A stretch of DNA of 36,784 nt, from positions 1-36,784 of the IMG/VR virus record IMGVR_UViG_2778261535_000012; one strand, given 5' to 3'. This DNA comes from a virus (taxonomy: Duplodnaviria; Heunggongvirae; Uroviricota; Caudoviricetes). The position numbers and the translations under genes are program-made. Positions within the stretch are counted from its first letter, which is position 1. Each line of letters opens with the position of its first letter. Positions 20,301 to 20,733 of this stretch are shown one piece after another. The notes below the pieces were generated by a model, which did not search any database, was not told the origin of the DNA, and worked only from the letters and a program-made list of their open reading frames with translations.

Positions 20301-20596
20301 GTCTTACCCCCAATAAGGGGATTTGCTCTATTTAATTAGGAATAAGGTCGATTACTGATAGAACAAATCCAGGCTACTGTGTTTAGTAATCAGATTTGTT
20401 CGTGACCGATATGCACGGGCAAAACGGCATGAGGTTGTTAGCGCAACCTCCTGCCACCCGATTTCACGAAGCCAGCCATTGAGCTGGTTTTGTTTTATGC
20501 AAAGCACACCGCACCGTAGCCACAGCGGATAAGGTGATTATTTTGGTCTGTCTGGTATTTGGTTTGATGTGCTTTCAGAAAGTCCGTGCTTAAAAC

Positions 20597-20626
20597 GCAA
20601 AAAGCCCCGAGCTATTAACTCAGGGC
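20597..20626 (-). terminator. Candidate terminator of a short pR' leader transcript (tR'-like)
   Basis: Minus strand GCCCTGAG-TTAATAG-CTCGGGGC followed by TTTTTGCGTTTT, about 30-60 nt downstream of the pR'-like promoter. Confidence 0.4.
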
Positions 20627-20662
20627 TTTATTTAACGAGTGCATTTATCCATCGTTGAGTCA

Positions 20663-20691
20663 AATTTACCCAATTTTATTCAATAAGTCAA
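20663..20691 (-). promoter_or_regulatory. Late promoter pR' (with overlapping qut region)
   Basis: Minus strand TTGACT (20691-20686), 17-bp spacer, TAAATT (20668-20663); the surrounding sequence TTGACTTATTGAATAAAATTGGGTAAATTTGACTCAACGATGG matches lambda pR' from memory. Confidence 0.7.
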
Positions 20692-20733
20692 TATCATGCC
20701 GTTAATATGTTGCCATCCGTGGCAATCATGCTG

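What the first reader, a model, noticed from the sequence alone, without database searches (positions are those of the whole stretch)
20301..20733. Mosaic late-gene leader: lambda-type pR'/qut and S-proximal segment flanking a substituted middle segment
The pR' promoter region and the last ~160 bp before S match lambda as I recall it, but the intervening segment (about 20470-20640) differs and carries a strong hairpin/T-run (20597-20626) only ~30-60 nt from the start site. That implies a much shorter Q-modified initial transcript than lambda 6S RNA. A second hairpin (20424-20455) lies further downstream.
Basis: partly seen in the sequence, partly recalled or inferred. Interest (0 to 1): 0.4.

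Follow-up and report, generated by a model that had tools for sequence, protein, structure and literature searches.

The report
Ordinary P22/HK022-type phage late-gene leader
This is the normal late-gene control region (promoter, Q-loading site and terminator) of a lambda-like phage; it is the short version already annotated in phage P22 and found in HK022, HK97 and many E. coli prophages, so it is ordinary.

Summary
Region 20301-20733 is the Q-S intergenic region of an HK620-like lambdoid phage encoded on the minus strand. Q and S are each 99% identical to lambda's. The pR' promoter, the Q-binding element and the AACGAT pause element are identical to lambda up to +8. The last 171 bp before S are 98% identical. 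The 162 bp in between (20472-20633) are unrelated to lambda's 405 bp.

The substituted segment starts with a strong intrinsic terminator: stem +28..+56, then UUUUUGCGUUUU, dG -19 kcal/mol, z -5. The Q-independent transcript should therefore be about 60 nt, against 194 nt for lambda 6S RNA.

The same 433-bp leader is 99.1% identical in HK544 and 96-97% identical in HK140, HK022 and the mEp phages. The middle segment occurs in HK97 (94%) and P22 (76%). From +1 through the terminator tail, P22 differs only in the hairpin loop. The curated P22 record annotates this hairpin as "t late or tR', antiterminated by gene 23 protein". About 261-265 of 5426 complete E. coli genomes carry this version, as many as carry lambda's. 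A short antiterminated late RNA from P22 is cited in the literature.

One correction: the short RNA is the unmodified, terminated product, not a "Q-modified" transcript.

Verdict: already known, low interest.

The parts
20734..21357 (-). Q, the late-gene antiterminator (lambda/P22 'type 1' Q, 207 aa)
   Evidence: 206/207 identical to lambda Q and 200/207 identical to P22 gp23. ORF listed.
20663..20691 (-). pR' late promoter (-35 TTGACT, 17-nt spacer, -10 TAAATT). The Q-binding element TATTGAATAAAATTGGGTAAA lies between and overlaps the hexamers.
   Evidence: Promoter scan. 100% identical to lambda over this stretch. The same string is annotated as PR'/Qut in the HK and mEp phage records.
20651..20662 (-). 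Sigma-dependent pause element. The -10-like AACGAT is at +1..+6 (20656-20651) and is preceded by the -35-like TTGACT (20663-20658). +1 is at 20656.
   Evidence: Identical to lambda. The start position matches 'similar to phage lambda P late RNA 5' nt' in P22 record BK000583. Role taken from PMC9388147.
20592..20629 (-). tR', the late-leader intrinsic terminator: AAAGCCCUGAG-UUAAUAG-CUCGGGGCUUU, then UUGCGUUUU. Stem +28..+56, predicted release at about +58..+62.
   Evidence: Terminator scan. dG -19.1 kcal/mol, z -5.1. P22 differs only in the loop, and its record annotates this hairpin as 't late or t R'; antiterminated by gene 23 protein'. In ES18 two stem pairs are changed on both sides and stay paired.
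20472..20633 (-). Block unrelated to lambda (162 bp, replacing lambda 44610-45014, 405 bp). It holds tR' plus about 120 nt of non-coding leader.
   Evidence: Alignment to lambda. Found at 94-99% identity in HK544, HK140, HK97, HK022, mEp phages and Emek, and at 76% in P22.
20301..20471 (-). S-proximal leader shared with lambda (171 bp, 98.2%)
   Evidence: BLAST and alignment.
20426..20455 (-). Second hairpin, GGCAGGAGGUUGCGCUAACAACCUCAUGCC followed by GUUUUGCC. Shared with lambda. Function not established.
   Evidence: Fold -24 kcal/mol, z -3.6. Present in lambda with a perfect 10-bp stem. One compensatory G-C to A-U change between lambda and P22, but single mismatches in the window, HK140 and Emek.
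20308..20323 (-). Small CCCC-UUAU-UGGGG stem-loop just upstream of the S start codons (the lambda 'sdi' structure that sets the S107/S105 start choice, named from memory)
   Evidence: Identical to lambda. Weak fold, -9.7 kcal/mol, z -1.0. The name and role rest on my own knowledge of lambda S and were not tested.
19977..20300 (-). S holin/antiholin with the dual start MKM, the first late gene
   Evidence: 106/107 identical to lambda S.

Best explanation
The region is the late-gene regulatory cassette (pR' promoter, Q-binding element, sigma-dependent pause element, tR' terminator and untranslated leader of the lysis genes) of an HK620-like lambdoid phage or prophage. It is the short-leader allele shared by P22, HK620, HK022, HK97, HK544 and the mEp phages.

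Proposed mechanism:
1. RNA polymerase starts constitutively at pR' (+1 = 20656).
2. Sigma70 re-engages the -10-like AACGAT at +1..+6 and the polymerase pauses at about +16/+17.
3. Without Q, the polymerase escapes the pause and terminates at the hairpin/U-tract at +28..+62, releasing an RNA of about 60 nt.
4. With Q, Q binds the element between the -35 and -10 hexamers and loads, with NusA, onto the paused polymerase. It forms a nozzle on the RNA-exit channel that prevents the terminator hairpin from folding.
5. The modified polymerase reads through tR', through the second hairpin and through later terminators into S, R, Rz and the morphogenesis genes.

What is shown here is the sequence anatomy, the identity to lambda's Q-loading elements, and the identity to the annotated P22 tR'. 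The pausing, termination position and Q-dependent read-through are inferred by homology. The difference from lambda is an ordinary lambdoid mosaic joint: the Q/pR'/qut module is joined to a different terminator-plus-leader module.
For: - Q is 99% identical to lambda Q and 97% to P22 gp23. Lambda Q and P22 gp23 are reported to substitute for each other (bioRxiv 10.1101/2020.10.05.325894).
- The promoter, Q-binding element and AACGAT are identical to lambda.
- The terminator is predicted by two methods, with z = -5.1.
- The whole 433-bp leader is 99.1% identical in HK544 and 96-97% identical in HK140, HK022 and mEp phages, with PR'/Qut annotated there.
- From +1 through the terminator tail, the window is identical or nearly identical to P22, HK97, HK022, HK620 and HK633. 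P22 differs from the window only in the hairpin loop; the others differ at no more than one base.
- P22 record BK000583 annotates the RNA 5' nucleotide and 't late or t R'; antiterminated by gene 23 protein' at +31..+59. Emek annotates the same hairpin as a rho-independent terminator.
- ES18 has an unrelated Q and promoter but keeps the terminator, with two stem pairs changed on both sides (GAG/CUC to GCA/UGC), and an identical tail.
- A short antiterminated late RNA from P22 is cited in PMC7547250, reference 54.
- The cassette logic and nozzle mechanism are described in PMC9388147. The RNA 5' end has threaded through Q by 15-16 nt, before the hairpin's 5' arm at +28 is made.
- The allele is common: 265 of 5426 E. 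coli genomes hold at least 80% of the leader, and 79 phage records hold at least 80% of a 176-nt query (20470-20645) spanning the middle block.
Against: - Nothing in the sequence contradicts this explanation.
- No transcript mapping exists for this particular phage.
- The initial transcribed sequence differs from lambda at +9, +11, +15 and +17. This includes the base after the lambda pause position (G17 to A), so the exact pause position and lifetime could differ.
- The U-tract is interrupted (UUUUU GCG UUUU), so termination efficiency and the exact 3' end are uncertain.
- The HK620 record labels the same hairpin 'qut' and names a distal hairpin as the terminator. Annotators therefore have not been unanimous.
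Confidence: 0.93

Rival explanations
1. As well as being the by-product of antitermination control, the constitutive pR'-tR' RNA of about 60 nt has a function of its own in lysogens. It would act as a trans-acting regulatory small RNA, as StxS does in Shiga-toxin phages.
For: - pR' is constitutive in lambda, and StxS shows that a pR'-tR' RNA can acquire Hfq-dependent regulatory functions. The authors of that paper suggest this may be common (PMC7547250).
- The RNA has a 5' stem, an A/U-rich linker (AAAUAAA) and a terminator hairpin with a U-tail.
- Between P22 and the window, +1..+70 is almost invariant, while the next 115 nt are much more divergent (76% over the whole 176-nt query).
Against: - No Rfam family matches the region. 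The best hit is NsiR1 at 17.9 bits against a gathering score of 39, E = 1.5.
- The sharp drop in identity after +70 is equally explained by a mosaic recombination joint, because the Q gene and promoter upstream are just as conserved.
- The elements within +1..+62 are already constrained by pausing, Q loading and termination.
- The U-tail is short and interrupted.
- No target, no Hfq-binding data and no phenotype are known. No function has been ascribed even to lambda 6S RNA.
Confidence: 0.1
2. The middle block encodes a small protein: the 51-codon GTG ORF at 20352-20507(-), which is annotated as a hypothetical protein in HK140. On this view the leader is really a gene.
For: The ORF is present in the window. 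Its counterpart is annotated as HK140_065.
Against: - The ORF runs through the conserved hairpin and into the lambda-homologous leader.
- Its frame is broken by 1-2-nt indels in HK97 and by several indels in P22 in the aligned region.
- It is not annotated in HK544, HK022, HK97, P22 or lambda.
- It has a GTG start.
Confidence: 0.03
3. The proximal hairpin is part of the Q-utilisation site rather than the terminator, as in the HK620 annotation. The functional late terminator would be further downstream, for example the second hairpin at 20455-20426 followed by GUUUUG.
For: - The HK620 record labels +15..+57 'qut' and places the terminator at a distal hairpin.
- The second hairpin is stable at -24 kcal/mol.
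Against: - The proximal element has the full intrinsic-terminator signature: a G+C-rich stem directly followed by UUUUU.
- It is annotated as tR' in the curated P22 record and as a terminator in Emek.
- In lambda, the Q-binding and pause elements all lie upstream of +17.
- The second hairpin has only GUUUUG after it and an internal mismatch in this phage and several relatives.
- The distal HK620 terminator lies in a segment that this window does not have.
Confidence: 0.04

Closest known systems
P22 late regulatory region (gene 23 - P late/PR' - qut - t late/tR'), GenBank BK000583
   Same: - Same Q family (97% protein identity).
- Same promoter architecture and start nucleotide.
- Same sequence from +1 through the terminator tail except for the hairpin loop (UUAAUAG versus UUUAACCG).
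- Same terminator position, +31..+59.
   Different: - The Q-binding element differs at 2 positions; the window's is lambda-identical.
- The leader downstream of about +70 is only about 70-76% identical.
- The first late gene in P22 is gene 13 rather than a lambda-type S.
Late leaders of coliphages HK544, HK140, HK022, HK97 and the mEp phages (Hendrixvirinae and relatives)
   Same: The whole 433-bp Q-S intergenic region is collinear and 96-99% identical. It includes tR', the middle block, the second hairpin and the S-proximal block.
   Different: There are only point differences. Most of these phages have 1-2 mismatches to lambda in the Q-binding element, whereas the window, like mEp213 and mEp043, has the lambda sequence. 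These are siphoviruses, whereas the window's virion genes are HK620-like podovirus genes.
Lambda pR'-qut-tR' and 6S RNA (194 nt)
   Same: - Q is 99% identical.
- The promoter, Q-binding element and pause-inducing AACGAT are identical through +8.
- The last 171 bp before S are 98% identical.
- The regulatory logic is the same.
   Different: - Lambda's +24..+427 (405 bp, which includes most of 6S RNA, tR' at about +165..+192 and orf-64) is replaced by an unrelated 162 bp with the terminator at +28..+58.
- There are four substitutions at +9..+17.
HK620 / HK633 late leader
   Same: Overall these are the closest genomes to the window. They have the same pR', the same initial transcribed region and the same proximal terminator through GGGGCUUUUU.
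   Different: HK620 and HK633 diverge immediately after the U-run and carry an intergenic region of about 1021 bp with a second annotated terminator. The window has the 433-bp HK022-type leader instead.
StxS small RNA of Shiga-toxin phages (the pR'-tR' transcript)
   Same: Same origin in principle: a constitutive late-promoter transcript that ends at tR' in the lysogen (PMC7547250).
   Different: - StxS is made as a 258-nt RNA and processed by RNase E to 74 nt.
- Its sequence relationship to this leader was not tested; I did not compare the two sequences.
- No regulatory role is known for the RNA here.

Membership tests
Lambda-type (type 1) Q-dependent late regulatory cassette | A Q gene of the lambda/P22 family lies immediately upstream | tested here: met
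   206/207 identical to lambda Q and 200/207 to P22 gp23. Q ends 42 bp before the -35 hexamer.
Lambda-type (type 1) Q-dependent late regulatory cassette | A sigma70 promoter with the lambda Q-binding element between the -35 and -10 hexamers | tested here: met
   TTGACT-TATTGAATAAAATTGGG-TAAATT is identical to lambda. It matches the Qut string used in the mEp and HK annotations.
Lambda-type (type 1) Q-dependent late regulatory cassette | A sigma-dependent pause element (-10-like AACGAT at +1..+6, adjacent to -35-like TTGACT) | tested here: met
   Sequence identical to lambda through +8. Pausing itself cannot be tested with these tools.
Lambda-type (type 1) Q-dependent late regulatory cassette | An intrinsic terminator lies between the pause site and the first late gene | tested here: met
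   Hairpin plus U-tract at +28..+62. S starts at +357.
Lambda-type (type 1) Q-dependent late regulatory cassette | Q-dependent read-through of the terminator | not testable with these tools
   Requires in vitro transcription with and without Q and NusA, or in vivo reporters.
P22/HK022-type short tR' leader allele | Sequence homology of +1..+70 and of the terminator to the annotated P22 tR' | tested here: met
   Differs only in the hairpin loop. P22 tR' is annotated at +31..+59.
P22/HK022-type short tR' leader allele | Collinear homology of the rest of the leader down to the holin gene | tested here: met
   99.1% to HK544 and 96.5% to HK022 over all 433 bp.
Lambda 6S RNA allele (194-nt leader) | Homology to lambda +24..+194, including lambda tR' | tested here: not met
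   There is no alignment between 20472-20633 and lambda 44610-45014.
Curated RNA families (Rfam 15) | A score at or above a family's gathering threshold | tested here: not met
   Only two sub-threshold chance-level hits were found in 19900-21400.
StxS-like Hfq-dependent sRNA | Hfq binding, processing to a stable 3' fragment, and defined mRNA targets | not testable with these tools
   These features are defined experimentally in PMC7547250. Sequence similarity to StxS was not tested.

The most novel reading that the evidence does not exclude
The constitutively made pR'-tR' RNA of this widespread P22/HK022-type leader, about 60 nt long, could be a trans-acting regulatory RNA that modulates the lysogen's physiology, by analogy with StxS. 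That would make it one of the most common prophage-encoded small RNAs in E. coli and Salmonella: about 5% of complete E. coli genomes carry it.
Probability: 0.08. Interest if true: 0.5.

Novelty: already known. Interest (0 to 1): 0.1.

Why it matters
It matters little as a discovery. This is another copy of a late-gene control region that is already sequenced in dozens of phages and annotated in P22.

Two modest points are worth keeping:
- Lambda's textbook 194-nt 6S leader is not the typical form. In the searched phage collection it is confined to lambda itself, lambda hybrids and close relatives. The ~60-nt leader, with the terminator only about 12 nt downstream of the Q-loading pause, is the commoner natural arrangement.
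- This abundant short RNA has never been examined for a function of its own. After StxS, that is a reasonable but speculative question.

Tried and rejected
- **Rfam scan** of 19900-21400 at a permissive E-value: nothing meaningful.
- **The 51-codon ORF at 20352-20507(-)**, annotated in HK140: rejected as coding because indels break the frame in HK97 and P22.
- **The idea that the middle block is a rare or new substitution**: rejected. It is in 79 phage records and 261 E. coli genomes.
- **The idea that the second hairpin is part of the substituted block**: rejected. It lies inside the lambda-homologous block.
- **Daniels et al. 1988** (RNase III sites in the lambda late leader, PubMed 2849240), sought to assign the second hairpin: the paper is not held, so that hairpin's role stays open.
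- **A 10-nt inverted match** between the window (GTGGCTACGG, 20528-20519) and lambda's replaced block (CCGTAGCCAC): judged likely chance, at about 0.1 expected by my own estimate.
- **Literature searches** for a dedicated experimental description of the P22 or HK022 short leader RNA: only the secondary citation in PMC7547250 turned up.

Full report
**What is at the coordinates**

The phage genes in this part of the window run on the minus strand. Region 20301-20733 is the whole intergenic region between two genes.
- One is a 207-codon gene at 20734-21357(-), 206/207 identical to lambda Q and 200/207 identical to P22 gp23.
- The other is a 107-codon gene at 19977-20300(-), 106/107 identical to lambda S.
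- Homologues of R and Rz follow.

The window as a whole is most similar to HK620-like (P22-like) E. coli podoviruses.

**Check of the observation**

A consensus scan of 19900-21400 finds a single sigma70-like promoter, on the minus strand. It is TTGACT-17 nt-TAAATT at 20691-20663. On that strand the scan also finds a single terminator-like site: AAAGCCCTGAGTTAATAGCTCGGGGCTTT followed by TTGCGTTTTA, with the stem at 20629-20601.

As RNA the hairpin folds at -19.1 kcal/mol, with z = -5.1 and 0 of 200 shuffles folding as well.

Alignment with lambda 44439-45239 shows the following.
- Identity runs from the end of Q through the promoter, the spacer that holds the Q-binding element, the TTGACT/AACGAT pause element and up to +8.
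- There are four mismatches, at +9, +11, +15 and +17.
- Homology is lost after CTCGTT (+23, window 20634).
- Homology resumes at 20471 (+186) and continues to S, 171 bp at 98.2%.
- The non-homologous block is therefore 20472-20633 (162 bp). It replaces lambda 44610-45014 (405 bp), which holds most of the 6S RNA template, lambda tR' (U-run at +187..+192) and the annotated orf-64.

I set +1 at 20656, the first A of AACGAT. This corresponds to the position annotated in P22 as 'similar to phage lambda P late RNA 5' nt'. On that numbering the terminator stem is +28..+56 and its G+C core is +31..+53. The U-run is +54..+58, followed by GCG and UUUU at +62..+65.

It lies in the lambda-homologous block, and lambda has it with a perfect 10-bp stem.

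**What it is**

The whole 433-bp leader is an already sequenced and widespread allele.
- Megablast against the phage collection finds it collinear and full length in HK544 (99.1%), HK140 (97.5%), HK542, mEp213, mEp043, HK106, mEpX1, mEp234, ECP1, HK022 (96.5%) and others. In all, 68 records cover at least 80% of it.
- Several of these records annotate 'promoter similar to lambda PR'' and a 'Qut site' at the same position.
- A 176-nt query spanning the middle block (20470-20645) is found in 79 phage records at 80% coverage or more. These include HK97 (94%), the Salmonella phage Emek (97.7%) and P22 and its relatives (76%).
- Laid side by side, the sequences from the -35 hexamer through the terminator tail are identical or nearly so in P22, Emek, HK97, HK022, HK544, HK140, HK620, HK633 and the window. 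P22 differs from the window only in the hairpin loop.

The curated P22 record BK000583 annotates the following:
- 'P late or P R'';
- the qut site;
- the RNA 5' nucleotide at 37887;
- 't late or t R'; antiterminated by gene 23 protein action to allow full late transcription' at 37917-37945, which is +31..+59.

Emek annotates the same hairpin as a rho-independent terminator.

Among complete E. coli genomes, 265 of 5426 carry at least 80% of the leader and 261 carry the middle block. Lambda's own 405-bp block is in 217 genomes; the six top hits listed include several laboratory strains. In the phage collection it is full length in only 21 records, all at 99% identity or more. The full-length records listed are lambda, lambda hybrids or close relatives such as HK630, DE3, DN1 and lambda imm434. 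Lambda is the less typical form.

**Support for the terminator beyond annotation**

Salmonella phage ES18 has a different type of late activator (gp73, 765-bp gene) and an unrelated promoter region. Even so, its leader joins the family inside the terminator. The ES18 sequence is GCCCTGCA-GCGA-TGCGGGGC followed by the identical TTTTTGCGTTTTAAGCACG.

Compared with the window's GCCCTGAG/CTCGGGGC, two stem pairs are changed on both sides and remain paired. HK620 and HK633 share the terminator exactly and diverge from the window immediately after GGGGCTTTTT.

The terminator is therefore a conserved functional unit that sits at mosaic joints. This is the usual pattern in lambdoid phages.

**How it most likely works**

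The Q-dependent cassette is described in PMC9388147.
1. RNA polymerase starting at PR' pauses at a sigma-dependent pause element.
2. Without Q it terminates at the terminator.
3. Q bound to the QBE loads, with NusA, onto the paused complex.
4. Q forms a nozzle on the RNA-exit channel that prevents terminator hairpins from forming.
5. Q then travels with the polymerase over many kilobases.

That paper also states that the RNA 5' end has threaded through the Q torus by 15-16 nt. This is before the 5' arm of the hairpin here (+28) is transcribed, so a terminator this close to the loading site is mechanistically unproblematic.

Every lambda element needed for loading is present and identical here: the -35 and -10 hexamers, the QBE, the TTGACT repositioning site for sigma region 4, and AACGAT. 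Q itself differs from lambda's by one residue.

Lambda Q and P22 gp23 are reported to be interchangeable (bioRxiv 10.1101/2020.10.05.325894). That covers the four base differences at +9..+17, which the window shares with P22.

My inference is that unmodified polymerase releases an RNA of about 58-62 nt, and that Q-modified polymerase reads through into S, R, Rz and the virion genes. A short antiterminated late RNA from P22 is cited, together with those of phages 21, phi80 and 82, in PMC7547250, reference 54.

The short RNA is the product of polymerase that was not modified by Q. It is not a 'Q-modified initial transcript'.

**Rivals considered**

1. *The short RNA has its own regulatory role, as StxS does (PMC7547250).* This is not excluded, but nothing supports it here.
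   - There is no Rfam match.
   - The strong conservation of +1..+70 relative to the downstream leader is explained as well by a recombination joint, and by the constraints of pausing and termination.
2. *The 51-codon ORF at 20352-20507(-), annotated in HK140, is a gene.* Its frame is broken by indels in HK97 and P22, so I reject it.
3. *The proximal hairpin is 'qut' and the real terminator lies downstream, as in the HK620 annotation.* The hairpin has the full terminator signature, and all lambda loading elements lie upstream of +17. I consider that HK620 label a mis-assignment.

**Open points**

- The function of the second hairpin (20455-20426) is not established.
  - It shows one compensatory change between lambda (G-C) and P22 (A-U).
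  - It also shows single mismatches at the same stem position in the window, HK140 and Emek.
  - The paper on RNase III processing of the lambda late leader could not be read.
- The substitutions at +15 and +17 could alter the pause position or lifetime relative to lambda. This cannot be tested here.

**Verdict**

But the feature is an already known, annotated and common allele of the lambdoid late regulatory region. Interest is low.

Noticed in passing
L010 (HK620, AF335538) 1611-1653 and 2242-2268; window 20592-20629: The HK620 record labels the proximal hairpin (+15..+57) as 'qut' and a distal hairpin as the late terminator tQ. The P22 and Emek records label the same proximal hairpin as tR' or a terminator. 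The HK620 label looks like a mis-annotation.
   Followed up: partly
window 20599/20598 (end of the GGGGCTTTTT run); L007 (HK633), L010 (HK620): HK620 and HK633, otherwise the window's closest relatives, diverge from it exactly after the terminator U-run. They carry a Q-S intergenic region of about 1021 bp instead of 433 bp. This is a mosaic joint at the terminator.
   Followed up: partly
L008 (ES18, AY736146) 987-1011 versus window 20601-20629: ES18 has an unrelated late activator and promoter. It keeps the same terminator with two doubly compensated stem pairs, and an identical downstream tail. The terminator-plus-leader module therefore travels independently of the Q type.
   Followed up: partly
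window 20352-20507 (-): A 51-codon GTG ORF overlaps the leader and is annotated as a hypothetical protein in HK140. Its frame is not conserved in HK97 or P22, so it is probably not a gene.
   Followed up: yes
window 20426-20455 (-): The second hairpin has a G.A mismatch at stem position 5 in the window, HK544, HK022 and HK97. The same position is G-C in lambda, A-U in P22, U.C in HK140 and A.C in Emek. It is a variable position in an otherwise conserved stem, and the role of the hairpin is unknown.
   Followed up: partly
window 20665-20685 (-): The window's Q-binding element is identical to lambda's, as in mEp213 and mEp043. Most carriers of the short leader (P22, HK022, HK97, HK544, HK620) have 1-2 substitutions there (TTTTTGAATAAAGTTGGG).
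   Followed up: partly
window 20519-20528 (-): GTGGCTACGG in the substituted block is the reverse complement of CCGTAGCCAC in lambda's replaced block. This is probably a chance match, at about 0.1 expected by my own estimate.
   Followed up: no
window 18207-18737 (-): Downstream of Rz there is a 176-codon ORF. It corresponds in position to the KilA-domain genes annotated after Rz in HK544 and HK620. It is not part of the finding.
   Followed up: no
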